A program made the position numbers and the translations under genes. DNA of 64,000 nt from NCBI GenBank assembly GCA_964016885.1, contig OZ024747.1, positions 39,990,001 through 40,054,000 on the forward strand, in the 5' to 3' direction. Every line of letters begins with the position of its first letter. Positions within the stretch are counted from its first letter, which is position 1. Shown here piece after piece: positions 1-62,226 of the stretch. This DNA comes from Eledone cirrhosa (taxonomy: Eukaryota). The notes beneath the pieces are model-generated. The model ran no database searches, was not told the DNA's origin, and worked only from the letters and a program-made list of their open reading frames with translations.

Positions 1-1230
1 CGGGACTTAAAGGAACAGTCAGAAGAATGATTATCTTATTAGGCAGCGGTAATGATCTGCGTACACACGTAGACAGCCATCATATATACAAGCAACTGTT
101 TCAGCACCCGGAGGAAAACTAACGAACACTTTACTCCCAGGGATGGTGATGGATATGTGCTGAAAGGTTCTCATTCTTACGGTGAACATCTGTTTCTCGA
201 TGAAGATGAATAAGATGGAGAGTTCGGAGGGTCCGTTGTTTCCACCAACAGCTTTAACAAGAAACCTTTCAGAGAGGAGGCAGTAATGTGTCAACTTGCT
301 ATCTGCAAATTTTCTGACGACTGAAATTGCGGCTGTTGCCATTTTCACCAGCTTGACGCCAGAAAAAGAATCACTAAAGTTCGCATTCCAGATTAGAGAA
401 TTACGGTTCATGAGTTCTTTTACTATCACGTCGGTCTAAAACTGCCCATCGAAATACCGTTGAAAACAAATGGACGAAGCATGGACACTGCTCGTTTTTA
501 GAGGGAGAGAGAAAGCGATAGGGGAAAGAGATTTCCAGTGCACGTGATTATGTGTGCGGATCGTGGAAAAGAGTATGTATGTAGGACACAGATTGAAAGA
601 CAGGGAGAGAGGGGGGAAACAGGGAGAGAGGGAGAGAAAAAGACAATGAAAAAGAGAGAGTGAGACGGAGAAAATCAGAGAGAGGATGAGGAGGTTCAAA
701 TGAAAGTAAAAGAGAGCGTGAGAGAAAGACAGTAATAGAGAGAATGATAGAGAATTAGTGTGTGTACATGTTACGGAAGGAGATGTTGACAGAAAGTGAT
801 GTGGATTGAACTTGTTATTCTTGTTTTATTGTTGTGAAAACATTTTCAACACCTGCCATAGAATTTCATTTTTAGACTCTTTCTTTCAGACCACTCCTTT
901 ACATTTTCATCCTCTATATTCAATTTTACTTTATTTCGTTAGTGTTTTTCCTCATTGGTGAGCGAGAGTCTAAGTTTTTGTTGTTGTTTTTTTTTGTTTT
1001 TTTTTGTTTTAAAAAAGTGAAAGCCTGTTATTTAGATATTCTCAGAATGAAATTGGTGAGACTCATTATGAAGATTTCAGATCCGTTTATAATGTTGAAA
1101 GGAATGGAACAGTAACAAGATCTGATTTTACATGGACGTACATGTGCTTACAAACACACACGCACACACGGACTCACATACTCATACATGCAAACACACA
1201 CACACACATATACATATATATATATATATA

Positions 1231-1417
1231 ATATAGAATAGCTTCTACAGGGCTAGAACTGTTTCATTCGTGAGAAATCACCAGGAGCTTCCTGATGATT
1301 TCTCACGAATGAAACAGTTCTAGTCCTGTAGAAGCTTTTCTATATTAAACATTTATGCTCTACTATGTATTGAGTACCTTACTCACTGTGGATACCCCGA
1401 TTGAACCCGGAATAACT
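1231..1417 (+). mobile_element. Fold-back hammerhead element, family A (PLE pseudo-LTR-like)
   Basis: Inverted arms 1231-1285/1291-1345, then a unique tail to 1417, flanked by (TA)n. Homologous to 56872-57053. Confidence 0.8.
1286..1336 (+). ncRNA. Type I hammerhead ribozyme
   Basis: agcttc-CTGATGA-t(ttc tcac gaa)t-GAA-ACAG ttctagtc CTGT-A-gaagct. Stems I, II and III pair; cleavage triplet GUA. Confidence 0.85.
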
Positions 1418-1441
1418 TATATATATATATATATATATATA

Positions 1442-1666
1442 TCACCTTGATCACCTTGACCGACCAGCACGTCGTGCTGTTTTAGCCATAAGATAACGCC
1501 ATTCCACTGGCTGGGCGGGCAGGCCGGTACTACAGCTGAGTAAACTGGAGCAACGTGAAATAAAGTGTCTTGCTCAAGGAAACAACACATCACCCGGTCC
1601 GAGAATTGAACTCACAATCTTTCGATTGCAAGCCCAATGCTCTAACCCTAATCCATGCGTCTTCAC
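1442..1666 (-). mobile_element. tRNA-derived SINE with CORE-like domain
   Basis: B box GAGTTCAATTC, then CCTTGAGCAAGACACTT; homologous to 9421, 47321 and 61613. Confidence 0.75.
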
Positions 1667-8874: not shown

Positions 8875-9195
8875 AAAGAAAATTTCGCTCTACATGGTTG
8901 AATACAATAAATGTAATCTGAGTTTTTCGAATATTAATAATAACATTCGATTTGTTTGCAATCTTGCAAGCAACCCTCAATTTTATAGCCATGTCAGTAG
9001 AATGAACACTTCATTCTTGATCTTGTGTTGGCATGTGAACAGAACTGCAGACACTAATGTTTCTGGGTATCACCCTTCACCAGTACAGCTCACATTTCAC
9101 CTGCCAAACTGTCAGAGCTAGTGAAAATATGTGCTATTTTAAAAAATACACTGTGTATTTTTGAAAATAGCACATATTTTCACTAGCTCCGACAG
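8875..9195 (-). mobile_element. Fold-back element with hammerhead in the tail
   Basis: Palindrome 9110-9195. HHR 9045-9088 rc: ctgta-CTGGTGA-a(gggt gat accc)a-GAAAC-attagt-GTC-tgcag (A6G variant). Confidence 0.7.
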
Positions 9196-15266: not shown

Positions 15267-15408
15267 AGAACATATATACATACATATAGACAAATATACA
15301 TTCATACATATATATATATATACAAACATATATGCATGCATATAAAGATGGCGACAGAGACAGATCGATAGATAAATAAATAGATAGATACATACATACA
15401 TATATATA

Positions 15409-15666
15409 TACGATATTAACAAATGGAAACTATATTTATAAAACCATATTTATTTCATTATACATATTTCAAGGATACCAAGTTAAATTATGGTGTGCTT
15501 TCATCAGATAAAATATAATATAGAGCAATTTTATAAATAAATATTGACACACCCTTAAAGAATGCAACCATTACTGTTGGAAGAACCCGGATAGTAGGGT
15601 TATAACTTTATTTATACTATTATGTAAATTAGTATTGGATATTTTTAAATAAGCCGTTGGGTTACG

Positions 15667-15740
<74 letters not shown>

Positions 15741-15756
15741 AAGAGAGAGTGAGAGT

Positions 15757-15813
<57 letters not shown>

Positions 15814-16153
15814 ACAAGAGAGAGAAAAAAGAAAAAAGAGAGAGAGAGGAAATAGAAAGAGAAGAGAAGGCGAAAGCTCTAAGTGATTGGTGTTGAGTTA
15901 TCTTAACATTTGAGATGAAGTAAATGTCAATATGTATTTATAAAATTGCTCTATATTATATTTTATCTGATGAAAGCACACCATAATTTAACTTGGTCTC
16001 CTTGAAATATGTGTAATGAAATAAATATAGTTTTATAAATATAGTTTCCATTTGTTAATATCGTATTTTTACTCCAATTATTTGTTGAGTGCTTTATATC
16101 AGTTATAAAAATATATGCTTGTTGTATCCCAACAATTTAAATAGAACTTTTAC
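15409..16153 (+). mobile_element. Fold-back hammerhead element, family D
   Basis: Arms 15409-15549/15924-16075. HHR 15961-16023: ttttat-CTGATGA-aag..ctt-GAAA-tatgt-GTA-atgaaa. Tail with TTGAGTGC. Homologous to 61491-62226. Confidence 0.8.
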
Positions 16154-19171: not shown

Positions 19172-21085
19172 ATTTCATTTATTGGCCACAAGGGCCAACA
19201 TATAGGGGACAATACAAAAGACTGGGACAGTGGGGTTTTACAGAAAAATCGAATAAACAATATGAATCATAATAACAAAGTAACAATAACAAAGTAACAA
19301 TAAAGTAACAAGAAAATTACAAGAAAAAATTCCCCAATAGGGGGATGGCCACCCAGGGTTCGCTTAGGTACCCCACCAATCCTGAACGACCCGACGCTTC
19401 GTGAGCACCCTGGAAGGGCACCCCTCTCCTCCTCAAATGTACTTACCTACAGCCGCATGACCAGAGTAGGCCCACTCACACGGGCCATTCTCGCCAGATT
19501 CACCCCCCTTTCAGCAAATGTTCTGGGGGGGCAGCACTTCTCTCTCTACCCTCACCTTCCTTTCCCAGTGAAACTTGAAAAAGTTGATGAGGCATTGGCC
19601 GAAGAGAGAAGTGTCTGTCTTCAGTGCTTTCAACCTCGTCCACCATACAACCTCTTTACCTACTGCCACCAGACAGAGGAAAATTGCCTGCCCTTCTGGC
19701 CAAAAGAAGGCGGCGGATCGATCTTCACTATGGACTCGGCCGATAGCCGGATCCGTTATACAAGCGACAACAGCTGTTCAACATAACTCCACAATTCAGT
19801 AATGCACAGACACTGGACGAGTGCGTGCAGAACGGTTTCGTCGCACTGCGCGCATCTCGGGAGGGGGCCTCTGACAGTACTTCCGTGCCTGTAGAGTTTA
19901 TCTCGAACCGGGAGGGCCCCCCGGTAGCACTACCAAGCGAGGGGTTTTTTGGAAATTATCCATCGTCCCCGGCTCGAAAGTCCTCCGGTACAGACTGGTT
20001 AGTTCGACTTCGTTGACTCCCAGAGCCTCTCCGGTCTGACGCTAGTAGATGACGGACGCGATGTACGCGTTCGCCACCTGCGCCCGACCTTTCAGCGATA
20101 GCTTCATCCCAGCCCATTTCTGGGTGAGACTGGCTACCCTGCCCGTCACCTCGTCCCAATTCTTATCCACCTAGAGGTCTGGCACGAACCAAACCCCGAG
20201 AAACTTTACCGGTCCGTCCGTCCAGCGCCTAACGATGCTGTTGGACGGCATGGCCTTGACTCTCCAGGTGCCGAGTTGCAAGCCCACCGACTTTTCCGGG
20301 TTAAGTTTTGCTCCCGTCAACCTTTCATATTCCTCCAATAAGTTGCCGACCACCTCGATTTCTGAGGTGTCCGACACCATCACGGTGATGTCGTCCGCAT
20401 AAGCCGACACAGCCTTTCCGCGTCCCGGTTCAAGCGGGATGCCCTGCAACAGCTCCAGCTTCCGCAGTAAAGGCTCGAGAGTCAATACGTACAGAAGGGA
20501 GGAGAGAGGGCACCCTTGACGGACCGATCGGGAGACCTGAAACGGTTCCAAGAGGTGGCCATTAATTTTGACCATCGAACAGGTGCCGATTTGCATTGCA
20601 GCGATCCAGCTTCTGAAGACGGGGCCGAAGCGAGCTGCCTTGAGGACAGCCTCCAGGTACCGTTGGTCGACCCTATTGAATGCTTTCGATTGATCTAAAT
20701 TGATCAGAGCCCCACCGAAGCCAGGTTTACACCCAACCCTCTCTATGATGTATCGCATTAGGTGGAGGTTGTCGTGGGATTTCGCAAGTTTGCGCCTCCC
20801 CAACCAAATCCCCGACGACAAGCGCCAACCTCTTCGCTAACACCCTGGCCAAAGTCTTAAACTCTGTGTTGAGCAGAGTTATGGGCCTGAAATTGTCTAA
20901 TGTGTCCCTCTTGTTCTCGTCTTTCCTTATCAGCGTCACTATGTCCCGGCTCACAGAACTGGGAATACTCCCGTTTTTCTGCCAGTTGCAGTAGAGGGCT
21001 TCGAGGAGATTGGATAACAAGTCTGGCATATTTACGTAAAGCTCGTAGGGCAGACAATCCAAACCCGGTGACTTGCGCCTCATGC
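19170..21085 (-). mobile_element. Tx1-clade L1 copy A (RT to 3' end, internally deleted)
   Basis: KSPGLD, NFRPITLLN, LDQSKAF, VRQGCPLS, YADD. Near-identical to part of 24960-27315; 3' end AATAAA then (ATT)n. Confidence 0.9.
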
Positions 21086-21525
21086 TTCATCTCCACTGCT
21101 GGAAGACAAAGGATATGTGGCTGTGAGTGTATCTGTGTCTGTGTGTGCATTTATTGTTTTGTCTATGTGTATAATTGGAGAGGTAGGGGGAGTTGGAGAT
21201 CGTCCCTCGTATTCCTCTTGTATTGGTTTCGGTGCTGTTGGTGGTCCGGCTGTTTTTGATGTTGGTGGGTTACCCGTGTCATTGTTGGTGGTATTTTTGT
21301 GGTGGTGGTGCAGCTTTCCGTGCCGACACTGGTGTTGGCAACAAAGAAGGTTTGCGACCCGCAGCATTTTTGAGCTGCGGACAGAAGGCTTGCAGATGCG
21401 TTGCTTCCCCGTATACGAAGCAGTGAGGCCTTCTTCCCTCAGTGATTAATTAGATTATTGTCCCGTCCTGCAGGCGGGCAAAATCCGGTATATTGTTGAT
21501 GTCCTCTGGTTTCATTTAGAGAAAA
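21086..21525 (-). mobile_element. Tx1 ORF1 fragment (diverged subfamily)
   Basis: IPDFARLQ..RRPHCFVYGEATHLQAFCP aligns by eye with the ORF1 knuckle at about 29583-29700. Confidence 0.65.
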
Positions 21526-21529
21526 ATAA

Positions 21530-22950
21530 TGCTTCCTTTATTAACCACAATGGTTTACACAGAGTAAAAGCATTAAGGAAAATACAGGATAATACAGGAC
21601 GGTACAAATGGGTATTTCTGCTTGTAAAAAAAATAAAAAACAGAGGATGTAACAAAAAACGAAAATCAATGAAAAATTCCCAAGAGGGAGGGAGACCTCC
21701 GAGGGTTGCTCGTGGAGAAAGCCCACAAAAAAAGCCTCAGTTACCCTGGCCGCTAGGGCAAATGCCCTCTTCCAGTTTTCCTCCTACTATTCTGCAGGCA
21801 CACGCTCAGCGTAGACCCATTCACACGGGCCATTCTTGCCTCTCTCACCCACCTTTCAACAAATTGGCTGGAAGTCAGCACTTCCCGTCTTCAATCCTTT
21901 CGAGGGCTGTATTCGAGTGAAGACATTTCAGTCTCCAAGCGCTTGACCCAGGACTGCAGCTCCGTCAAGGAGACAAGCTGGGGAAACACGTGTCTAGCAA
22001 AGGGTGACCACGCCTGATCACCGTCGAGGAAGAGGTGGAGATGTCGTATCCTTAGCGCATGATGTCTGCGCATCATCAGTCGCGGCATGCCCAGCCCTCC
22101 GCGTAGCGGGTGTTGACAGCAGATGGACCGCCTGACATCGGAGCACGTCCCTTTCACAAAAAGTGAAAGAGCAAACGCTCCAGTCCAGTTAGGCGAGGCT
22201 TAGGACAAGGCATGACGGTGGTGCGGTAGTAGATGACGGACGCGACGTTGTACGCATTCGCCACCTCCGCTCGACCTTTCAGAGATAGCTTCCTCTCGGG
22301 CCATTTCTGGGTGAGAGAAGCCACCTTGCTCGTTACCTCGTCCCAGTTTTTGTCCGTCTGGAGTCTGGACCGAACCAGACCCCTAGCAATTTAACGGGTC
22401 TGTCCGTCCAGCGCCCGACGACGCTGTTGGACCTCGTGGACCTGTCTCTCCAGGTGCCGAGTTTCAGGCCCTCTGATTTTTCCTGGCTGATCATTGCTTC
22501 TCTTAGTGTAGTGCCGATTGCCTCAATGTGTTTGGCGTTCGTCACTACTAAGGTGACGTCGTCTGCATAAGCTAACACGGTTCTTCCGCATCCTAGTTTG
22601 CGCTGGATCCTCCTCAACGTCTCCAGTTTGTGCAGTAATGGCTCGAGAGTCAATAAGTACTACAAGGATGAGAGAGGACATCCTTAGCGGATCGAGCTCA
22701 TGATGTTGAACGGTTCCGAAAGGTGACCGTTAACTCTCACCACAGAGCAGATGTCGCTGTGCATGGCAGCAATGCAGCCTCTGAAGACAGGCCCAGAGCC
22801 AGCTGCTCTTAGGACTACCACCAGATAACGATGGTCAACCCTATCGAAAGCTTTTGACTGATATAAATTGATCAAAGACCCACCCAAGCCAGGTTCCCTA
22901 GCTATCCTCTCTACGATGTATCGCATGAGGTGGAGGTTGTCGCGGATGGA
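21530..22950 (-). mobile_element. Tx1-clade L1 copy B (second subfamily)
   Basis: QSKAFDRVDH, LEPLL, YADDVT, GGLGMP; 3' UTR shared with 24657-24955. Confidence 0.85.
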
Positions 22951-22957
22951 ATAATAA

Positions 22958-24615
22958 CGCAAATTCAGCGAAGGGGAAATGAAACGTGTCAGTAAAAACG
23001 AGGTAAATTGTAACACTTCAAATCCCAGGGTTGGGGCGGAATCACTGACAGCAGAACAAATTAAAGAAAGGATCGAAAAAGTGGCAGGAGTGCATGCTCA
23101 AGATGAAACTCAAAATGAAAACAATGAGATCGTCAATGATAAAGAACTTGCCAACTTGAAGAATGAAATTATGATCGAATGGATGAAAATGAAAAAATCT
23201 GACATGGGGGAACGAGACACTGTCCCTAAGATCCAGAACTCCAAACAAAACCAAAGGATAATACACAAGACTAACATAACTCTCAAAAACATTATCATCA
23301 CAAATAAACTAAACATTACTGATCTAAATCATCTCTATTATGCATCGGCTAAATTCACCACTCAGTTATGTGGAATGAAAATGAAAAAACAAAGGAATTC
23401 CCACAAAAAACCTACAGGGCAAGAGAACATCAATCACCAAATAAACCTTCCCTGGTCTGACATAGAAATTTTAGCAAACTACAAAGTAGGTGAACATGTT
23501 AAACAAACTAAACTTAGAAAATTGAAAAGAAAATACAGTATAAATCAACACGTGACATAGACATGCTGATAGAAACAATCAAGCAAAAAGTGTCGACCAA
23601 AGCTGCTCGTATAAGGCGCTTTGAAAAACGATCTAGATTCTATAAGGACAATATGTTCAAAAACAACCGAAGGAACTTCTACAAAAAAATTGGCAAGTCA
23701 ACAATAACTGCTAAATCAATACCACCCAAGGGGAAAATGCAAGAATTCTGGGAAAAGATCTGGGCCGAAGAAAAAGTTCATAATATACATGCCCCATGGA
23801 TAGACAGACGAATGAAAGATACAGCTCACCTTGAGGAACAAACATGGGAAAATATAACAGTTGAACATCTGCGTTTAGCTCTTAGAAAATCAAGCAAATG
23901 GAAATCCCCAGGGAAAGACAAAGTACAACATGTTTGGATAAATGCCTTCACAGAGTTTCATGAGCTGTTAGTCCAACTTTACAATGAAATGGTTAAGGAA
24001 CCAGAAAAAATACCATCATGGTTAGTTAACGGCATTACATTCCTACTTCCGAAGAATGATGAAACAAACAATCCCCAAAATAACAGACCGATAACTTGCT
24101 TGACATAACATTTTAACATCAGTCCTAACTGAATATACATATGATCACCTGATAACAAATTATCTATTTCTCAATGAGCAGAAAGGGTGTAAACGAGGCT
24201 CATATGGCAGTAAAGATCAGCTTTTGGTTAACGAAATGATACTGGAAAAATTGTCATAATAGACACAAAAATCTATCAATTACTTGATAGATTGGAAAAA
24301 TGGGGAAGTTAAGAACTAAAACAATACCAGTGGTTGGAGGCGCTCTAGGAATGATACCTAAGGGATCTAATGATTACTTATCGCAAATCCCAGGAAACAC
24401 GCGTATAGGAGAAATACAAAAGACAGTACTAATGGGAACTTCCCATATACTAAGGAAGATACTGTCAATATAAGTACATTACAAGTCTAAACACCTAAAG
24501 ATGCATGTGTGTGTATGTATGTTCTTTTTTGAACATGGTGGACCTTTTTGTCTCTTGAGGTCACTGGTTGTGACTTGGTGATAACTCGTATGAACATAAA
24601 GCAAGATAAATGCAA
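22958..24615 (+). mobile_element. R4/Dong-like LINE with large internal deletion
   Basis: N-terminal region, KSPGKD..TFLLPK..RPITCL, then a jump at about 24290 to KLRTKTIPVV..GALG and the 3' UTR; TAA runs at both ends. Confidence 0.85.
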
Positions 24616-24617
24616 TT

Positions 24618-24651
<34 letters not shown>

Positions 24652-24656
24652 TAATA

Positions 24657-24955
24657 ATACTTTCTTTATTAACCACAAGGGTTTACAGAAAGTAGACATT
24701 AAGGACAGTACAGGACAATACAGGACGGTACGAATGGGCATTTCTGCGTGTAAAAAACAAAAACAGAGGATGTAACAAAAAAATAACAATCAAAAATTCC
24801 CCAATAGGGGGGAGGCTTCGGAGGGACATTTGTGGAGAAAGCCCATTAAAAGGCCACAGTGACCCTGACCACCAGGGGAAGAGCCCTCTCCCAGTTTTCC
24901 AGCTTTAATTTACAGACACATACTCAGAGTAGGCCCATTCACTCGGGCCATTCTT
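24657..24955 (-). mobile_element. Tx1 copy C, 3' end only
   Basis: Homologous to 21535-21840. Confidence 0.8.
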
Positions 24956-25248
24956 GATAATGATTTCATTTATTGGCCACAAGGGCCGACATATAGGGGA
25001 CAATACAAAAGACTGGGACTTTACAGGTGGGGTTTTACAGAAAAATCGAATAAACAATATGAATCATAATAACAAAGTAACAATAACAAAGTAACAATAA
25101 AGTAACAAGAAAATTAAAACAAGAAAAAATTCCCCAATGGGGAGGATGACCACCTAGGGTTCGCTCAGGTACCCCACCAGTCCTGAACGACCCGACGCTT
25201 CGAGAGCACCCTGGAAGGGCACCCCTCTCCTCCTCACAATTTACCTAC

Positions 25249-28200
25249 CTACAGCCGCATGACCAGAGTAGACCCACTCACACGGGCCATTCTCGCCACA
25301 TTCACCCACCTTTCAGCAAATGTACTGAGGGCAGCACTTCTCTCTCCACCCTCACCTTCCTTTCCAAGTGAAACTTTAAAAAGTTGATGAGGGATTGGCC
25401 GAAGAGAAAAGTGTCTGTCTTCAGTCCTTTCAACCTCGTCCACCATACAACCTCTTTCGCTACTGCCACCAGTCAGAGGAAAATTGACTGCCCTTCCTGG
25501 CCAAAAGAAGGCGGCAGGTCGATCTTCACTATGGACCCGGCCGATAGCCGGATCCGTTCTACACACGACAACAGCTGTTCAACATAACTCCACAAGTCAG
25601 TAATGCACGGACACAGGGCGAGTGCGTGCAGAACTGTTTCGTCGCTCTGCGCGCATCTCGGGCAGGTCCGTCTGACAGCACTTCCATGCCTGTAGAGGTT
25701 ATCTCGAACCGGCAGTGCCCCCCCGGTAGCACTGCCAAGCGAGGGATTTTTGGACATTATCCATCGCCCCCGGTCCGAAAGTCCTCCAGTACAGACTGGT
25801 TAGTTCGACTTCGTTGACTCCCAGAGCCTCTCCGTGTGCGTCGTCGCACTTGCCCACCACTAATCCTCTATAGAACTCGAGAGTGGAAGTTCCACTGACA
25901 GCATTGCCCCCTTGGAAGAGGGCAGTGAGAGCCTGGCAACATTCCAGATGCCAGTCACCCAGTCTCGGTCTCTTCTTGACCCAGGACTGCAGCTTAGTCA
26001 GAGAAACGAGCTGCGGAAAGGCCCGTCTGACGAACGGCGACCACACCTGTTCACCGTTTAGGCAGAATATCTGGAGATGCCGCAGCCTCAGCGCGGGCCT
26101 GCACATCAGTAGCCACGGCATGCCCAGCCCTCCACGTAGAGGGTGCTGGCTGCAGATGGACCGCCTCACCAGCGGAACCTGACCCCTCCACAAGAATTTG
26201 AGGAGGAGCCGCTCCAAGATGGCGAGGCGCGAACGGGGGCAAGGGACGACGGTCAGACGGTAGTAGATGACGGACACTATGTACGCGTTCGCCACCTCCG
26301 CCCGACCTTTGAATGATACCTTCATCCCAGCCCATTTCTGGGTGAGACTGGCTACCCTGCCCGTCACCTCGTCCCAATTCTTATCCACCTGGAGGTCTGG
26401 CCCGAACCAAACCCCTAGCAACTTTACCGGTCCGTCCAGCGCCTAACGACGCTGTTGAACGGCATGGACTTTCCTCTCCAGGTGCCGGGCTGCAAGCCCA
26501 CCGGCTTTTCCGGGTTAAGTTTTGCTCCCGTCAACCTTTCATATTCCTCCAATAAGTTGCCGACCACCTAGATTTCTGAGGTGTCCGACACCATCACGGT
26601 GATGTCGTCCGCATAAGCCGATACAGCCTTTCCGTGTCCCGGTTCGAGCGGGATGCCCTGCAACAGCTCCAGCTTCCGCAGTAAAGGCTCGAGAGTCAAT
26701 ACGTACAGAAGGGAGGAGAGAGGGCACCCTTGACGGACCGATCGGGAGACCTGAAACGGTTCCAAGAGGTGGCCATTAATTTTGACCATCGAACAGGTGC
26801 CGATTTGCATTGCAGCGATCCAGCTTCTGAAGACGGGGCCGAAGCGAGCTGCCTTGAGGACAGCCTCCAGGTACCGTTGGTCGACCCTATCGAATGCTTT
26901 CGATTGATCTAAATTGATCAGAGCCCCACCGAAGCCAGGTTTACACCCAACCCTCTCTATGATGTATCGCATTAGGTGGAGGTTGTCGTGTATGGTCCTG
27001 GTTGGGATTGCGCAAGTTCGCACCTCCCCAACCAAATCCCCGACGACAAGCGCCAACCTCTTCGCTAACACCCTGGCCAACGTCTTAAACTCTGTGTTGA
27101 GCAGAGTTATGGGCCTGAAATTGTCTAATGTGTCCCTCTTGTTCTCGTCTTTCCTCATCAGCGTCATTACGCCCCGGCCCACAGAACTGGGAATACTCCC
27201 GTTTTGCTGCCAGTTGCAGTAGAGGGCTTCGAGGAGATTGGATAACAAGTCTGGCATATTTACGTAAAGCTCGTAGGGCAGACCATCCAAACCGGGTGAC
27301 TTGCGCCTCATGCAGCCGACAAGGGCATCTTGAATCTCGGCTGAAGTAATTTGCCTTTCGCAGCGCCCAGCGTCAGGCGTAGAGGGTTTGTAAGCCATCG
27401 AGGTAGGGACTGAAGTCCGCCACCATCTCTGACCCGCCACTTCCCCCGAACAACCGAGCAAAATGTTGGCGAAAGGCCTCACACATCATCTTGGAATCGC
27501 TCAGCTGGTGCCCGTCTCGGTCCGTCAATGACCGAATCGTGGTTTTATTACCACGCTGCGCCTCTGCCACGCGGGCCCATCGAATAGCTGTGGTTCCCTC
27601 GTTTCTCAGAGCATGCGCCTTAGCTCTGACAATGCAACCCTCGTGTTTCGCATTGAAGAAATGGTCTAATGCCATTCTCGCCGCTAGCACGTCAGTTGCA
27701 ATGCCACTACCAATAGCCTCCTCTAACTTATCTACCAACTCCCCCTCCTTTCTATTTTTCTATAACGCTACTTCTTTGCTAAACTCTATCGACATTACTC
27801 TAATCTCTCTTTTGAGAGCCCCCACCATCTATTGTTGACGACTACCCCTGTCAACGTTTTCTTAACTAAATTGTTGACCTGGTCCCTGTAAGCCTTACGT
27901 GACGGAAATGACATGTTTAGCTTCCAGTAACCAGGTCCTAACCTACGCGTCTTATCTAGGTCGACCATACAGATCACAAACTTGTGATCTGAATAGGCAA
28001 CTGTTTCAAAACGTGGACAGCTTACACTATTTCTCTCTATTTTCCTAATGAATATCCTGTTTATATACGATCTAGATGACCCTATGCGGTTAGCCCAGGT
28101 CCACACTGGAGCATTAGGGAAATCTAGTCGGTACCTGTCAGACAGTTGGAACTGGCTGATCAGGTTCTTGATGCTTTTTCACCCCCCGCTCCTATCGGAT

Positions 28201-28664
28201 ACTCCCACACAGTCCCAGCGTGTGTCTAAGATGCCGTTCCATTCCCCCGCTAACAGTAAAGGGCGAGACGTACCCAGAAAGGCTTCCAGGCGTCTAAAGA
28301 AGTCCGGCCATCCTTCCCCAGTAGGAGCATAGACGGCCACGAGTCTAAAGGCACCACCTTCGTTATTGTTCACGTCCAGGACCACCAACTTCCCGTCCGG
28401 GTCCCGAAAGATCGACCTTACCTCGAGATCCAGGCCTTTCCTAAACAGCACTGCCACCCCGCTTCCCATTCCCGGCCTGCTAACAGATGCTAAGATCTGA
28501 TAGTCGTCGAAAATGGGGGCTAGTGCGCGCCTGTCGGAAATCCTTGTCTCGCTGCCGGCAATTAGATCCATTTCTATAGACCTGAGGTCGTTGAGCAGGT
28601 GACCCTGCTTCCAGGACGATCCCAGGCCTCAAACATTTGAACATCCTACTCTTAATACGGCCAA
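25249..28664 (-). pseudogene. Tx1 ORF2: APE endonuclease, RT and C-terminal zinc knuckle (disrupted)
   Basis: SETR, GVAVL, VYAP, AGEWN, SDHK, WKLN; KSPGLDG, QGCPLS, YADD; CPRCAQSDETVLHALALC. Confidence 0.9.
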
Positions 28665-28699
28665 GTTGGCAGGTTAAAAAGAGAAAGAGGAAGGTTTAC

Positions 28700-30640
28700 T
28701 TACCTTCCGGGCTCTTGTGAAGGTCGGGTTGTTCAACCTCCATAATTGGTGGGGTTTCTTTTGGGAACCCCTTTAAAAGTCTTGAAGTGGATTTTACTTT
28801 CTGGGTTCCCACGTCCCGAGGAAAGCTGTCTCGTATTTCTTTGAATATATCGAACGACATTCACACCAGAACCAAATCTTCCGGCACGCGAAATGTGCTC
28901 GATTTAAAAATGTCACCCTCTTTTTTGTATATTTTCACTTCGTGCTACGAGGGCCATCAGTTCCTTGTTGGCCTTCCTGACGAGCACGAAGTTTTGTATG
29001 TTTTGTTGGTGTGATTTTATTTGTTTGCGTGGCTGTGGTAGTGATGGTTTTGGTGGTGCTGTTTCGGTTATATCTGTGTTTGTTTTGAGTGCGGTGTCTG
29101 TGGTTTCAGAGGTTTGTGTGTATATTTGTTCTTGCGTCTGTTTAGGTTGTTTGCGTTTGGGGGATTCTGGAGATGGTGATGGTGGTGTTGATGTTGGTGT
29201 TATTGGAGAGACGTTTGCGTGGGTGGTGTCTGCGTTTTTTATTGTGGGTGATTTTGTGCTTTGTTGAGTTTTTTTTTCTTTTTGTGTTTCCCTTTTTGTA
29301 GTTTGGGGGATTTTGGTTTTCCCTCATCTTCACTAGATGAGGGGTTTGTGTCTGTAACTGTGTCTGTATGTACGTTTATGGTTTTATTGGTGTGTGTATT
29401 TTGGGGGGGAGGGGGAATTTGACAGCTTTCCTCGTTTCCCCCCTGGGTGGTCAATGTTAGTGGTGGTCTTTCAATTGGTGTTGTTGTTGGTGGTTTTGCC
29501 GGTGATGGTGTTGGTTGTGGTCCACGCCCCGCCGTCGGCAGCAGTGGAGCCTTTCGACCCCTTGCCTCTTTCAGCCGTTGAGGGCAGAAAGCTCGCTAAT
29601 GGGTTTTTTTCCCACAAATAAAACACTGCGGCCTTTTGCCTTCGGTCATAATGTAAATGACCGTCTCATTCTGAAGGCGGATGTAGTCCGGGATTGTCTT
29701 CACATTCTCGGGCCTGATGTGGAGAAGGATCTCCAGGTCAACCCCGGACCAGTCCTCTCTGGCCGTTCAGGTCACTTCTATAGGGACGGTATCCGTCCCC
29801 TCCACAATCACACATCCCAGAAGCCACCACATGTCAAGTCCTGGTGGGATTCTGGGAATGCGGAGACGGGCCGTTCTTGTTCCCATGTAGGAGGGGTACA
29901 TTATGACCTTGCTGGTTTTGCAAGGAGTCATAGCGTGTTTCATGGCGAGGGCTTCTGACTTGAACAACACCGAAATGGTGCCGTACTGTCTGCCACTCTC
30001 TATGTATTCGGTGTATTTTCTGATGCACCTCAGCGCGACTTCGACATCTTCTTGTGGGATTAAAGCTGCCCTTTTGGTTTGTGCTGAGATGCATCAATAA
30101 TGCACTGTTCTGCGCTCCACTGCCTCAATAGCTTCTACCGGGACAGTTAAGTTGGCCCAGGTTTTCTCTTGTTTGATGAGCTTCCATGCCTGGGCCAACT
30201 TTTAATCTTTGTTTGAGAGGTCCATGTTGAAGCATGGCCTCTTTTTTGCTGCTGCCGCAGCGAAAGTGTTCTTCTTGTTTTCGTTGGAGGTGTTGTGGTC
30301 GTTGTCGTTGTTCTTGTTGGTGTTGTTGTTAGCACTGTCGCTGTTATCATTGTTGTCTTTGTTGCCACCGTTGTTCTCGGGCAGTTGGTATTGTTGGTGT
30401 TGGTATTGTTGCTATTTGTTTTCATGTTAGTGGTGTTGATATTTTTGTTGCATTTGTTTTTTGTTTTATTTGTATTTTCGTTGTCGCTGTTACTGTCATT
30501 TTTTTCAAAATTAGAGTTCTCATTGGTATCATTGGTGTCTTTGTTTACATTGTTTGTGGTGGAGTTTGTGTTATCAATGTGTTAATTTCGCTGTAGCGCT
30601 CCTCTCAACTTCTACGTCGTTGTCGCACGACGGCCGACAT
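28700..30640 (-). pseudogene. Tx1 ORF1 (gag-like, disrupted)
   Basis: EGKRPQCFICGKKTH*RAFCP CCHC knuckle near 29583-29624; low-complexity N/T-rich linkers; ends approximate. Confidence 0.7.
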
Positions 30641-34560: not shown

Positions 34561-35179
<619 letters not shown>

Positions 35180-35902: not shown

Positions 35903-36142
35903 ATTATAAATGTAAGCTATCACCGTATTTTGACTAAAGAAATTATTTAGCCTGATAGTGGAGTTAAGAACTCTCGGTGTTGGTGTAAATGGTAGCATAG
36001 TGGCCTGGATAACCAAAGATGTGGGTTCGACTCCCATGTACGTCAATACTCATCTTTTTCCATTTCTCCGAGGGTTCTTAACCCCACTATCAGGCTAAAT
36101 AATTTCTTTAGTCAAAATACGGCGATAGCTTCCATTTATAAT
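35903..36142 (+). mobile_element. Inverted-repeat element enclosing a tRNA-like Pol III unit
   Basis: About 75-bp arms 35903-35977/36068-36142; core 35976-36046 with A box TGGTGTAAATGG, T arm gtggg-TTCGACT-cccat, then TTTTT. Confidence 0.7.
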
Positions 36143-36267: not shown

Positions 36268-36314
<47 letters not shown>

Positions 36315-36315
<1 letters not shown>

Positions 36316-36502
36316 CGAAGGAAATGTGGTAAGGAACCAGATGGACCATAACGCACCAAAGTACTCAATAATTAGGGTAGTAGAGTGGGTAATAGGAACG
36401 AGTAGGACCCCGACGGCTGAGCACAAGCCGTTTCGACGGCTAATTCTGAATTAGCCATCGAAACGGCTTGAGCTCAGCCGTCGGGGTCCTACTCGTTCCT
36501 AT
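36315..36502 (-). mobile_element. Fold-back hinged in hammerhead stem II (family F)
   Basis: Palindrome 36392-36502, centre 36447; GAAAC-ggct tgagctc agcc-GTC; no CUGANGA. Confidence 0.75.
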
Positions 36503-39708: not shown

Positions 39709-39932
39709 CAGAGAGAAGGAGAGAAAGGGAGAGAGCGATCTATATAGACGCGTGCGTGCGATTGTGTGCACACAATCGCACGCACGCGTCTATAAATTCA
39801 GACACACACACACATATAGATCTCTCTCTCTCCCTTTCTCTCCTTTTACATACGCATACATACGCATATATATTCATGTATACATGAATATGTATGCGTA
39901 TGTAAACGGGCCTTCGCCGTCTTCTTCTCTCC

Positions 39933-44210: not shown

Positions 44211-44258
<48 letters not shown>

Positions 44259-44260
<2 letters not shown>

Positions 44261-44592
44261 GGAGGTGAGTTTTATTGTAGTACAATAAAGCAATGCAGAT
44301 ATCGGATAAGAAGCACTCTACAGTTTGTGGGACTGGAGTATGCATAATATAAGATCAAAAGATGGTTAAAGGAGTTCCATATATTTTATTATGCGCATTT
44401 CAAAAACAAACATCATCAAGCAATAATATTTGTGTTTTCATCAGATAAAACAGGAGAACATATCATGTTCAGCCTTCATATCATGTTCTCCTGTTTTATC
44501 TGATGAAAACACAAATATTATTGCTTGATGATGTTTGTTTTTGAAATGCGCATAATAAAATATATGGAACTCCTTTAACCATCTTTTGATCT

Positions 44593-44600
<8 letters not shown>
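44259..44600 (-). mobile_element. Fold-back hammerhead element, family H
   Basis: Arms 44344-44461/44484-44600; ttttat-CTGATGA-..-GAAA-tgcgc-ATA-ataaaa on both strands. Confidence 0.8.
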
Positions 44601-49197: not shown

Positions 49198-49642
49198 TAT
49201 TATAAAATAACAGGAGGCTGGACTGGTGTAAATCCTTGAAAGGTTTATTATTCTATGATCATTTCAATGACCGGGTTCAGTATGAATCCGGTGACATCAT
49301 CAGGTATTCAAAATATAACAAAGGAACATAACAGATAAAATCCATTTCAGCCCCATGGATTTTATCTGTTATATTACTTTGTTATATTTTGAATACCTGA
49401 TGATGTCACCGGATTCATACTGAACCCGGTCATTGAAATGATCATAGTATAATAAACCTTTCAAGGATTTATACCAGTCAAGCCTCCTGTTATTTTATAA
49501 TAATTAACTCAGTACTCGCACCACCAACAACACAAATGAAGACTGGTGAGTTGCATTACGTTGAGTGCTCTCCATAATATTACTTCAAGGTTGACCATAC
49601 GGAATGACCAGTTCTATCCAGTGGTGAACCAACAAACCTAAA
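49198..49642 (+). mobile_element. Fold-back hammerhead element, family I
   Basis: Palindrome 49198-49502. HHR 49393-49450: atac-CTGATGA-tg..accgg..ccggt..-GAAA-tgatc-ATA-gtat. Tail recurs at 9668-9720. Confidence 0.8.
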
Positions 49643-56808: not shown

Positions 56809-56871
<63 letters not shown>

Positions 56872-56874
<3 letters not shown>

Positions 56875-57053
56875 TGAGAATCTACAGGACTAGAACTGTT
56901 TCATTCTTTAGAAATCATCAGTGATTCCTGATGATTTCTAAAGAATGAAACAGTTCTAGTCCTGTAGAATCTCATCTATATTAAAACTTGTATACTCTGC
57001 TATGTATTGAGTACCTTACTTACTGTGGTTACCTCCGATTCAACCCGGAAAAC
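56872..57053 (+). mobile_element. Fold-back hammerhead element, family A
   Basis: Arms 56872-56921/56928-56977; HHR 56923-56971: gattc-CTGATGA-..-GAAACAG ttctagtc CTGTA-gaatc. Confidence 0.85.
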
Positions 57054-57089
<36 letters not shown>

Positions 57090-58367: not shown

Positions 58368-61249
58368 GTGCTAGCCCATCTCTCTCTGCTAGCCCATCTC
58401 TCTCTGCTAGCCCATCTCTCTCTGCTAGTGTAGCTCTCTCTGCTAGCCCATCTCTCTCTGCTAGTCCATCTCTCTCTGCTAGTCCATCTCTCTCTGCTAG
58501 CCTATCTCTCTCTGCTAGCCTATCTCTCTCTGCTAGCCCATCTCTCTCTGCTAGTCCATCTCTCTCTGCTAGTCCATCTCTCTCTGCTAGTCCATCTCTC
58601 TCTGCTAGTCCATCTCTCTCTACTAGCCGATCTCTCTCTGCTAATCCATCTCTCTCTGCTAGCCCATCTCTCTCTGCAAGTCCATCTCTCTCTGCTAGCC
58701 TATCTCTCTCTGCTAGTCCATCTCTCTCTCTGCTAGTCCATCTCTCTCTCTGCTAGCCTATCTCTCTCTGCTAGTCCATCTCTCTCTGCTAGTCCATCTC
58801 TCTCTGCTAGCCCATCTCTCTCTGCTAGCCCATCTCTCTCTGCTAACCCATCTCACTCTGCTAGCCCATCTCTCTCTGCTAGTCTATCTCTCTCTTCTAG
58901 TCCATCTGTCTCTGCTAGTCCATCTCTCTCTCTGCTAGCCTATCTCTCTCTGCTAGCCCATGTTTCTCTGCTAGCTTATCTCTCTCTGCTGGTCCATCTC
59001 TCTCTGCTAGTCTATCTCTCTCTGCTAGTCCATCTCTCTCTGCTAGTCCATCTCTCTTTGCTAGCCTATCTCTCTCTGCTAGTCTATCTCTCTTTGCTAG
59101 TCCATCTCTCTCTCTGCTAGTCTATCTCTCTCTGCTAGTCCATCTCTCTCTGCTAGTCCATCTCTCTCTCTGATAGTCCATCTTTCTCTGCTAGTCCATC
59201 TCTCTCTGCTAGTCCAATTCTCTCTGCTAGTCTATCTCTCTCTGCTAGTCCATCTCTCTCTGCTAGTCCAATTCTCTCTGCTAGTCTATCTCTCTCTGCT
59301 AGTCCATCTCTCTCTCTGCTAGTCTATCTCTCTTTGCTAGTCCATCTCTCTCTGCTAGTCTATCTCTCTCTCTGCTAGTCTATCTCTCTCTGTTAGTCCA
59401 TCTCTCTCTGCTAGTCCATCTCTCTCTGCTAGTCTATCTCTCTCTGCTAGTCTATCTCTCTCTGCTAGTCCATTTCTCTCTGCTAGTCTATCTCTCTCTG
59501 CTAGCCCATCTCTCTCTGCTAGTCCATCTCTCTCTGCTAGCCTATCTCTCTCTGCTAGCCTATCTCTCTCTGCTAGTCTATCTCTCTCTGCTAGCCTATC
59601 TCTCTCTGCTAGCCCATCTCTCTCTTCTAGCCTATCTATCTCTGCTAGTCTATCTCTCTCTGCTAGTCCATCTCTCTCTGCTAGCCCATCTCTCTCTGCT
59701 AGTCCATCTCTCTCTGCTAGCCCATCTCTCTCTTCTAGCCTATCTCTCTCTGCTAGCCCATCTCTCTCTGCTAGTCCATCTCTCTCTGCTAGCCCATCTC
59801 TCTCTGCTAGTCCATCTCTCTCTGCTAGTCCATCTCTCTCTTCTAGCCTATCTCTCTCTGCTAGCCCATCTCTCTCTTCTAGCCTATCTCTCTCTGCTAG
59901 TCTATCTCTCTCTGCTAGTCCATCTCTCTCTGCTAGACCATCTCTCTCTTCTAACCTATCTCTCTCTCTGCTAGCCCATCTCTCTCTGCTAGTCTATCTC
60001 TCTCTGCTAGTCCATCACTCTCTGCTAGTCCATCTCTCTCTGCTAGTCCATCTCTCTCTGCTATCCCATCTCTCTCTGCTAGTCCATCTCTCTCTGCTAG
60101 TCCATCTCTCTCTGCTAGTCCATCTCTCTCTGCTAGCCCATCTCTCTCTGCTAGTCCATCTCTCTCTGCTAGTCCATCACTCTCTGCTAGTCCATCTCTC
60201 TCTGCTAGTCCATCTCTCTCTGCTAGCCCATCTCTCTCTGCTAGTCTATCTCTCTCTGCTAGTCCATCTCTCTCTGCTTGTCTATCTCTCTCTGCTAGTC
60301 TATCTCTCTCTGCTAACCCATCTCTCTCTGCTAGTCTATCTCTCTCTGCTAGTCCATCGCTCTCTGCTAGTCTATCTCTCTGTGCTAGCCTATCTCTCTC
60401 TGCTAGCCTATCTCTCTCTGCTAGTCCATCTCTCTCTGCTAGCCTATCTCTCTCTGCTAGCCCATCTCTCTCTTCTAGCCTATCTATCTCTGCTAGTCTA
60501 TCTCTCTCTGCTAGTCCATCTCTCTCTGCTAGCCCATCTCTCTCTGCTAGTCCATCTCTCTCTGCTAGCCCATCTCTCTATTCTAGCCTATCTCTCTCTG
60601 CTAGCCTATCTCTCTCTGCTAGTCCATCTCTCTCTGCTAGTCCATCTCTCTCTGCTAGCCCATCTCTCTCTGCTAGTCCATCTCTCTCTGCTAGTCCATC
60701 TCTCTCTGCTAGCCCATCTCTCTCTGCTAGTCCATCTCTCTCTGCTAGTCCATCTCTCTCTGCTAGTCCATCTCTCTCTTCTAGCCTATCTCTCTCTGCT
60801 AGCCCATCTCTCTCTTCTAGCCTATCCCTCTCTGCTAGTCTATCTCTCTCTGCTAGTCCATCTCTCTCTGCTAGTCTATCTCTCTCTGCTAACCCATCTC
60901 TCTCTGCTAGTCCATCTCTCTCTGCTAGTCCATCTCTCTCTGCTAGTCTATCTTTCTCTGCTAACCCATCTCTCTCTGCTACTGTAGCTCTCTCTGCTAG
61001 CCCATCTCTCTCTGCTAGTCTATCTCTCTCTGCTAGTCCATCACCCTCTGCTACTCCATCTCTCTCTGCTAGTCCATCACCCTCTGCTAGTCCATCTCTC
61101 TCTACTAGTCCATCTCTCTCTGCTAGTCTATCTCTCTCTGCTAGTCCATCTCTCTCTGCTAGTCTATCTTTCTCTGCTAACCCATCTCTCTCTGCTACTG
61201 TAGCTCTCTCTGCTAGCCCATCTCTCTCTGCTAGTCCATCTCTCTCTGC
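58368..61249. repeat. 18-bp minisatellite array (about 160 units)
   Basis: (TCTCTCTGCTAGYCYATC)n with occasional +2 CT slips. Confidence 0.95.
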
Positions 61250-61436: not shown

Positions 61437-61490
<54 letters not shown>

Positions 61491-61497
<7 letters not shown>

Positions 61498-62226
61498 ATA
61501 TTAATAAATGGAAACTATATTTATAAAACCATAATTTTTTATTATATATATTTCAAGGGCAACCAAGGCAGATTATAGTGCGCTCTCATCAGATAAAATA
61601 CAGATTAGTTTTCATCATCATCATCATCATTTCATTTTACGTCCGCTTTTTCCCTGCTTGCAAGGGTGGGACGGGAACTGATTCTGGCTTGATTTCTACA
61701 GCTGGATGCCCTTCCTAACACCAACCTCATTTACAGTGAGTGCTGGGTGCTTTTTTGCCGTGGCACCTCCACGACCACTTTGAAGTGGAATGATATAGAC
61801 CCCAGTCTCTATCATCTCATTTCTACAGCTGAGTAAACTGGAGCAATGTGAAATAAAGTGTCTTGCCCAAGGAAACAACACATCACCCGGTCTGAGAATT
61901 GAACTCACAACCTTTCGATTGCAAGGCCAATGCTCTAACCACTAAGCCATGTGCCTCCATAAATATTGACATACCCGGAAAAAAAACAACCTCAACGGTT
62001 GAAATTCGCTGAACGGTTTAGGTTGTATTTTATCTGATGAAAGCGCACCATAATCTACCTTGGTTGCCCTTGAAATATATATAATAAAATAATTATGGTT
62101 TTATAAATATAGTTTCCATTTATTAATATATTGTATATTCACTCCACTAATCGGTTGAGTGCTTTATATCCGTTATAAAAATGTTTAAGCTTGTTGAATC
62201 CCAACAAATTAAATATAACCTCTGCA
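61491..62226 (+). mobile_element. Family D fold-back element interrupted by a SINE
   Basis: Arms 61491-61602/62024-62136; HHR 62027-62090: attttat-CTGATGA-..-GAAA-tatat-ATA-ataaaat. Confidence 0.8.
61613..61958 (-). mobile_element. Full-length tRNA-derived CORE-like SINE with (ATG)n tail
   Basis: A box TGGCTTAGTGG, B box GAGTTCAATTC, CCTTGGGCAAGACACTT, tail ATGATGATG. Confidence 0.8.

What the first reader, a model, noticed from the sequence alone, without database searches (positions are those of the whole stretch)
1231..1345. Short fold-back arm stops at a reproducible internal TA-rich site
The short arm ends at an internal TAT/ATA that usually merges into flanking (TA)n (1231, 15409, 34641, 36502, 44600, 49198, 61491). 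Independent copies of one family end at the homologous position (1231 vs 56872; 15409 vs 61491). Inference: the second target strand primes internally by TA microhomology, analogous to twin priming, which gives the asymmetric palindrome.
Basis: partly seen in the sequence, partly recalled or inferred. Interest (0 to 1): 0.7.

Follow-up and report, generated by a model that had tools for sequence, protein, structure and literature searches.

The report
Hairpins, not TA, place Penelope ends
These lopsided DNA palindromes are truncated head-to-head ends of Penelope-like jumping genes, and both of their outer ends fall a few bases before a small hairpin motif, so the hairpins likely fix where copying starts on each cut DNA strand while pairing with TA repeats likely only fine-tunes the spot.

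Summary
The fold-backs are 5'-truncated head-to-head ends of Penelope-like retroelements; coding parents with Hydra-clade motifs were found for three families. The short arm lacks the known Penelope 'tail'. Short ends are reproducible (45 of 45 within about 13 nt) and TA microhomology is enriched (2.8 vs 1.0 nt; 91 loci, 29 families). No master palindrome exists. The twin-priming reading is only partly right: the long end is also an internal site on TA steps, the arms duplicate the same sequence, short ends also occur alone, and family A's commonest short end has at most 1 nt of homology. Position tracks a covarying RCTC...GAGY hairpin 5-11 nt downstream (38 of 91 loci, 5.4 expected), and a second hairpin follows the long end. 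Pairs are almost always one long plus one short (48 of 50). Best model (inferred): two hairpin-positioned primings, one per cut strand. The layout and two start sites are in print; the hairpins were not found in my searches, but this scan noted them before on other DNA.

The parts
1214..1230 (.). left (TA)n target run; its inner 2 nt also match the element (microhomology)
1229..1286 (-). short (S) arm of family A: inverted pLTR end without tail; hammerhead core copy at 1284-1277 reads CTGGTGAT (one change)
1286..1417 (+). long (L) arm of family A: hammerhead, S zone, hairpin 1 and tail
1286..1336 (+). type I hammerhead motif; predicted cut after 1330, 16 nt upstream of the short-arm end
   Evidence: unconstrained fold gives the three-way junction; layout like Hydra hammerheads in File S2 of PMC8557442; Rfam gives no hit
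1341..1352 (+). S zone: the AU-rich stretch in which family-A short arms end
1357..1377 (+). hairpin 1 (RCTC...GAGY motif); this copy has G at 1357 where most copies have A
1348..1417 (+). tail (about 70 nt) present on the long arm only
1418..1442 (.). right (TA)n target run after the long end
15408..16153 (+). family B fold-back; Hydra-type coding parent found
34641..35066 (+). fold-back with hammerhead core in both arms; no RCTC hairpin 5-11 nt after the short end; parent not searched
36312..36502 (-). family D fold-back; 3,542-bp coding parent found in tandem arrays
44258..44600 (-). fold-back with hammerhead core and RCTC hairpin 7 nt after the short end; parent not searched
49198..49641 (+). 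family C fold-back; read-through parent is a 2,024-bp tandem unit with no RT remnant found
56872..57054 (+). family A (second subfamily) fold-back whose short arm runs into (TC)n, then (TA)n
61489..62226 (+). family B fold-back with a later insertion between the arms

Best explanation
The fold-backs are truncated head-to-head insertions of Hydra-type Penelope-like retroelements, likely made when both DNA ends of a cut in (TA)n prime reverse transcription at two internal start sites, each likely positioned 5-11 nt before a small RNA hairpin and fine-tuned by TA pairing. Shown: arm anatomy, coding parents, end positions, hairpin spacing and covariation, long+short coupling. Inferred: the GIY-YIG endonuclease cuts both strands of (TA)n; a protein dimer likely binds hairpin 1 and hairpin 2 of an uncut, read-through RNA; the end delivered to hairpin 1 gives the short arm, the end delivered to hairpin 2 gives the long arm, and the sequence between the two sites is the tail. 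Both cDNAs would run towards the RNA 5' end over the same sequence (one RNA copied twice with strand displacement, or two RNAs of one source; not resolved) and be joined head to head with variable trimming.
For: Parents: family A 713-aa and family D 718-aa ORFs with RWR, DKT, YRDD, CxCX5C and C-terminal GIY-YIG; B parent aligns with them. Hammerhead core on the centre-to-outside strand in 37 of 107 fold-backs, 2 on the other. Hairpin 5-11 nt after the short end in 38 of 91 loci (5.4 expected), 10 of 29 families (1.2 +/- 1.0 expected); first pair A-T in 7 and G-C in 7 families, none discordant at family level. A second hairpin predicted after the long end was found for D (295 matches, control 0) and B (153, control 0) and seen in C. 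The same motif is visible by eye in published Hydra sequences of a coral and a sea cucumber, twice in Hydra-1_Ajap (PMC8557442 supplement). Coupling: 48 long+short, 1 long+long, 1 short+short, 5 other in 864 kb (p about 1e-12 at equal use); 23 of 24 pairs in the genome-ordered list (hand count). Within the 5-11 window chosen sites have 2.76 nt homology vs 1.48, best available in 18 of 38. Short arm reaches further 5' in 43, long arm in 29, equal in 39 of 111 rows (a few duplicated); several family-A centres are loop-free palindromes on AGCT. In vitro precedent: PAc cuts and extends both strands, starts at two internal sites that bound the tail, uses uncleaved RNA and is predicted to be a dimer (PMC11167929, parts 1-2 of 4 read).
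Against: No RNA, protein-binding or priming data for these families. The RCTC motif was first picked by eye in the same data used; families are related, so the counts are not independent. 53 of 91 loci and 15 of 29 families lack the motif within 20 nt, yet show the same TA homology (2.9 nt). In family A, the finding's own family, the second RCTC...GAGY pattern was not found; its long end is followed by a different 4-bp hairpin, and 13 of 45 short ends lie 17 nt, not 5-11 nt, before hairpin 1. The hairpins are weak by energy (mean tail z -1.2, 6 of 24 below -2). Central deletions after insertion could also produce either-arm-deeper centres. PAc priming was reported as not homologous to the target. 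No empty site was found, so target cut geometry and the prior length of (TA)n are unknown.
Confidence: 0.62

Rival explanations
1. L1-style twin priming: the first strand primes at the RNA 3' end and the second strand picks an internal site by TA microhomology alone.
For: TA homology at short ends 2.85 vs 1.02 nt; alternative ends fall on other TA-like steps (L017); copies with (TC)n flanks end at TCT.
Against: The long end is internal too; arms overlap in sequence; 28 of 45 family-A short ends have at most 1 nt homology and a 4-nt match nearby is unused; short ends occur alone.
Confidence: 0.08
2. Self-priming or snap-back: one cDNA from the long site folds back, is copied, and is joined to the other TA end by microhomology; later central deletions shape the centre (self-priming proposed in PMC3846280, passages).
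For: Arms of a locus share subfamily variants and a few locus-private ones (16 private of 203 shared minor variants over four families); long+short coupling follows naturally.
Against: Does not explain a fixed distance to hairpin 1, solo short ends, ORF-bearing copies ending at the short site, loop-free AGCT centres, or 43 short-deeper rows without extra deletions.
Confidence: 0.12
3. The two ends are cut sites, not start sites: the endonuclease resolves a longer intermediate at the hairpin-marked positions (EN-mediated resolution suggested in PMC8557442, passages).
For: A covarying hairpin could act in single-stranded DNA as well as RNA; the tail was reported as needed for EN recognition in D. 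virilis Penelope (cited in PMC11167929); both sites are AT-rich like EN targets.
Against: For PAc the tail boundaries coincide with measured RT starts; a spread of ends over several TA registers fits primer alignment.
Confidence: 0.13
4. The short end is the hammerhead self-cleavage site, or the palindrome is copied intact from a master.
For: A hammerhead lies just upstream of the short end in family A.
Against: The predicted cut is 10-21 nt (A), about 17 nt (D) and about 50 nt (B, C; read by eye) upstream of the short end and both arms keep the uncut site. No column separates long from short arms in four families, and centre spacing varies from 4 to over 1,000 nt.
Confidence: 0.02

Closest known systems
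EN+ Penelope-like insertion units with an inverted 5'-truncated copy and one-sided 30-40-bp tail (PMC8557442 passages, section 11, supplement parts; PMC3846280 passages)
   Same: Head-to-head inverted pLTR, tail on one end only, hammerhead in the pLTR, (TA)n targets.
   Different: Tails here are family-specific, mostly 55-110 nt; most copies are ORF-less stubs; strict long+short coupling and start-site hairpins were not in the main text of PMC8557442 (0 hits for hairpin, stem-loop, microhomolog, palindrom).
Hydra clade of C-terminal EN+ PLEs (PMC8557442)
   Same: RW[K/R], DKT, CxCX5C linker, CxxC and CxH around the conserved E and N, hammerhead layout, (TA)n preference.
   Different: Units are 3.5 kb (D) and 5.2 kb (A) because of long UTRs, against generally under 3 kb; RWR rather than RWK; no tree built.
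PAc (Poseidon, Anolis carolinensis) in vitro reaction (PMC11167929, parts 1-2 of 4)
   Same: Two internal RT starts bounding the tail, both strands cut and extended, AT-rich target, uncleaved RNA, predicted dimer.
   Different: [quoted passage not shown]
L1 twin priming and dual priming (PMC2837659, passages)
   Same: Both target strands prime; product has two inverted fragments.
   Different: L1 primes first on poly(A) and gives inversion with internal deletion at variable internal sites; here both starts are fixed internal sites and the arms duplicate the same sequence.

Membership tests
Hydra-clade PLE (families A, D; B in part) | single ORF, RT followed by C-terminal GIY-YIG EN | tested here: met
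   713-aa and 718-aa ORFs with YRDD and a GIY-YIG-like motif; Pfam GIY-YIG weak for A (E 0.0049, below cut-off), none for D; B seen only to the RT thumb
Hydra-clade PLE (families A, D; B in part) | RWK motif and DKG modified to DKT | tested here: met
   RWR and DKT in A, B, D; no DKG in A or D
Hydra-clade PLE (families A, D; B in part) | linker CxCX5C instead of CX2-5CxxC; CxxC and CxH flanking conserved E and N | tested here: met
   A and D; B not tested
Hydra-clade PLE (families A, D; B in part) | CCHH motif of the EN absent | tested here: inconclusive
   C/H positions listed but not aligned to canonical ENs
Hydra-clade PLE (families A, D; B in part) | canonical hammerhead in the pLTR; insertion in (TA)n | tested here: met
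   cleavage not assayed; Rfam no hit
Hydra-clade PLE (families A, D; B in part) | phylogenetic placement in the clade | not tested
   no tree; similarity to published Hydra proteins judged by eye
Hydra-clade PLE (families A, D; B in part) | generally short element (<3 kb) | tested here: not met
   D unit 3,542 bp, A unit about 5.2 kb; a tendency in the paper, due here to UTR length
PLE insertion unit | inverted 5'-truncated copy head to head, tail on one end | tested here: met
PLE insertion unit | target-site duplication | not testable with these tools
   flanks are (TA)n; no empty site found
L1-type twin priming | first primer on the RNA 3' poly(A) end | tested here: not met
   the long end is internal to read-through copies and has no poly(A)
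L1-type twin priming | two inverted fragments with internal deletion, not duplication | tested here: not met
   arms duplicate the same sequence
L1-type twin priming | both target strands act as primers | tested here: inconclusive
   inferred; not observed directly

The most novel reading that the evidence does not exclude
A Hydra-clade RT-endonuclease dimer loads on two tandem hairpins of one uncut RNA and hands each cut (TA)n end to its own hairpin-adjacent AU-rich alignment segment, much as telomerase aligns a primer beside a bound stem; lacking RNase H it copies the same RNA twice. This would be a programmed, structure-addressed double priming that explains the Penelope tail and inverted copy and is distinct from L1 twin priming.
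Probability: 0.4. Interest if true: 0.75.

Novelty: new variant of a known kind. Interest (0 to 1): 0.52.

Why it matters
How Penelope-like elements, the sister group of telomerase, make their inverted copies and one-sided tails is an open question named in PMC8557442 and PMC11167929. About 19,800 family-A arm matches in this genome record where copying began. They point to a concrete cis signal and a one-long-one-short rule that an existing in vitro assay can test directly. The palindromes themselves are ordinary transposon debris.

Tried and rejected
Hammerhead cut as the short end: first suspected, rejected once stems were assigned. Master palindrome: rejected. Empty target sites: flank-joining over 191 elements gave none usable; nested-insertion searches gave none; five ORFs broken by (TA)n did not resume within 10 kb; laying 4 runs on 600-1800 was swamped by paralogous copies and showed no empty allele. 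So whether (TA)n pre-exists at full length or grows at or after insertion is untested. No RNA holder listed. Second-hairpin pattern failed for family A (0 matches; 5 unrelated matches). Single-sequence structure model was unusable (pLDDT 31); no fold search run. Rfam found no hammerhead. Walking upstream from family-A stubs found no ORF because the UTR holds long microsatellites; parents were reached by read-through patterns. Whether one or two RNAs are copied could not be decided: subfamily concordance fits both. Short-deeper vs long-deeper excess is not significant overall (p 0.12). Literature searches for the hairpin or coupling; subscription papers are not covered; of the supplements only parts of that of PMC8557442 were seen, not those of PMC11167929 (its Fig. 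S1-S2 may bear on start-site structure). The retrozyme preprint 10.64898/2026.07.22.740005 (part 1 of 5) and PMC13282606 (passages) added nothing on ends.

Full report
Observation. At 1231-1345 the window holds a 92% inverted repeat whose left arm merges into (TA)n while the right arm continues about 70 nt to a second TA run. The other cited ends are real, with two caveats: 49198 has a degenerate TA flank, and 56872 ends about 5-6 nt earlier than 1231 and runs into (TC)n. I sampled 864 kb (464 kb around the window and four 100-kb blocks on other contigs). Of 305 local inverted repeats, 83 under 85% identity were dropped; of 222, 107 abut (TA)n on one side only, 12 on both, 103 on neither. In 91 of the 107 (29 families), exact homology between the element's continuation and the TA run is 2.85 nt against 1.02 nt at nearby positions; at family level 2.84 vs 1.06 +/- 0.25.

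Identity. Several window fold-backs carry a hammerhead core in both arms; across the sample the core lies on the centre-to-outside strand in 37 of 107 and on the other in 2. In the 1231 copy the motif spans 1286-1336 and folds into the three-way junction unconstrained, with the cut predicted after 1330; Rfam does not detect it. Patterns for copies that read through the long end led to coding parents: family D (36502) is a 3,542-bp unit in tandem arrays with a 718-aa ORF, family B (15409, 61491) continues into a related ORF, and family A (1231, 56872) is a unit of about 5.2 kb with a 713-aa ORF. A and D have RWR, DKT, YRDD, CxCX5C, a C-terminal GIY-YIG-like motif, CxxC and CxH, the marks listed for the Hydra clade in PMC8557442 section 11. 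Family C (49198) reads through into a 2,024-bp tandem unit without RT remnants. Parents of 34641 and 44600 were not sought. Family A has about 19,800 exact pattern matches, control 1. The organism was not identified; my use of 'octopus' as a search word was a recalled guess.

What is known. An inverted 5'-truncated copy and a tail on one end are standard for these elements (PMC8557442, passages; PMC3846280, passages). For the Anolis element PAc, both strands are cut and extended in vitro, reverse transcription starts at two internal sites that bound the tail, hammerhead cleavage is not needed, and a dimer is predicted (PMC11167929, parts 1-2 of 4).

Not a master palindrome. In long+short pairs (A 44, B 30, C 12, D 30; these include loci picked by similarity search) no column separates long from short arms, the two arms of a locus mostly share subfamily variants (own arm closer than the mean of other loci in 41 of 43, 27 of 28, 10 of 12, 24 of 27), and the centre moves widely. 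Two of 30 D pairs were discordant, possibly neighbouring insertions.

Is microhomology the cause? Only in part. In the first 100 genome-ordered family-A matches (hand count) 45 are short ends, 53 long, 2 other; all 45 lie within about 13 nt; 13 use a 5-nt TATAT match, 28 cluster 5-8 nt before a downstream ACTC with at most 1 nt of exact homology, 4 are irregular, and none use a 4-nt TATA match 3 nt further on. Long ends, measured against real read-through copies, also fall on TA steps (mean 0.7-4.9 nt by family, short ends 1.3-2.8). Tails of many families begin with RCTC that can pair with a later GAGY. It starts 5-11 nt after the short end in 38 of 91 loci (5.4 expected) and 10 of 29 families; its first pair is A-T in 7 and G-C in 7 families. 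Because the motif was picked in these data, I tested a prediction made after an earlier scan note suggested two hairpins: a second copy should follow the long end. It does in D (295 matches, 6 nt), B (153 matches, 9 nt) and C, with reversed-pattern controls at 0; it failed for A, where a different short hairpin follows. The motif is visible by eye in Hydra-2_Amil, Hydra-2_Ajap and twice at the start of Hydra-1_Ajap, with a GCCC/GGGC variant in Hydra-1_Crog (PMC8557442 supplement). Within the 5-11 window chosen sites still have more homology than average (2.76 vs 1.48; best in 18 of 38). The 53 loci without the motif show equal homology (2.9 nt), so TA pairing is general and those families need their own signal.

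Coupling. In the unbiased 864 kb, head-to-head pairs of families A-D are 48 long+short, 1 long+long, 1 short+short and 5 other, while unpaired ends are 26 short, 17 long, 1 other. The list gives 23 long+short of 24 pairs. Independent choice would give about half mixed. Short ends also close long ORF-bearing copies (7 near-full-length or internally deleted copies ended short and 2 long among 15 loci). Inner ends pile up at family-specific points; the short arm reaches further 5' in 43 rows, the long arm in 29, equal in 39 (111 rows, a few duplicated), and several family-A centres are loop-free palindromes on AGCT. This fits two separately primed cDNAs joined head to head, though later central deletion of palindromes (recalled) could mimic part of it.

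Mechanism. Shown: anatomy, parents, end positions, hairpin spacing, coupling. Inferred: the endonuclease cuts (TA)n on both strands; a dimer binds two hairpins on uncut read-through RNA; each DNA end aligns on the AU-rich bases just before its hairpin, with TA pairing choosing among a few registers; both cDNAs cover the same sequence and are joined. L1 twin priming differs in its poly(A) first primer and its inversion with deletion (PMC2837659, passages). Rivals are snap-back with end-joining and endonuclease resolution at the same marks. One versus two RNAs is open. No empty site was found.

Verdict. Real and reproducible; layout and two start sites are known; the hairpin-set positions and one-long-one-short rule were not found in print but this scan's earlier notes describe the twin hairpins and two-primer reading repeatedly on other DNA. 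New variant of a known kind; interest 0.52.

Noticed in passing
window 56849-56879; L002, L024, L028, L012, L147: A (TC)n tract often sits between an element end and its (TA)n, where the end has C or TC before TA; could be RT stutter at the start or later slippage.
   Followed up: partly
L273 (G000:C2:347035400-347043400): The family A 3' UTR carries about 2 kb of (TA)/(TG)/(TATG) microsatellite, so each full-length transposition would spread microsatellites.
   Followed up: partly
L209-L212, L216, L217: Tandem arrays of 3.53-3.54-kb family D units with open 718-aa frames.
   Followed up: partly
G000:C2:356030060-356031903; L203: Short tandem arrays of the D end: at least 7 units of 299 bp, and 257-bp units; retrozyme-like.
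   Followed up: no
L153, L165, L218: Family C read-through unit is 2,024 bp, tandem, with no RT remnant: a likely non-autonomous element.
   Followed up: partly
L013:1500-1940 (as oriented): Direct tandem of two different family A subfamilies with a short TA-like spacer.
   Followed up: no
L140 and L018, palindrome centres: L140 has three telomere-like TAACCC units at the centre; L018 has a 10-nt unit repeated three times.
   Followed up: no
families A-D: Inner ends pile up at about 132 (A), 275 (B), 350 (C) and 138-142 (D) nt upstream of the long end; possibly the RNA 5' end.
   Followed up: partly
L214, L250, L253, L257, L258: Element ORFs stop abruptly in (TA)n at ectopic points and do not resume within 10 kb.
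   Followed up: yes
window 35905-36140: Older inverted repeat (76%) around a tRNA-like match at 35976-36045 (Rfam 29.5 bits).
   Followed up: no
window 9109-9195 and 39743-39794: Palindromes without a TA run at either end; the second is a perfect 52-mer.
   Followed up: no
window 19300-30300: Two similar L1/Tx1-like RT segments around an R4-like RT fragment (labels from the look of the ORFs, recalled, not searched).
   Followed up: no
window 58369-61249: Array of 159 copies of an 18-bp unit.
   Followed up: no
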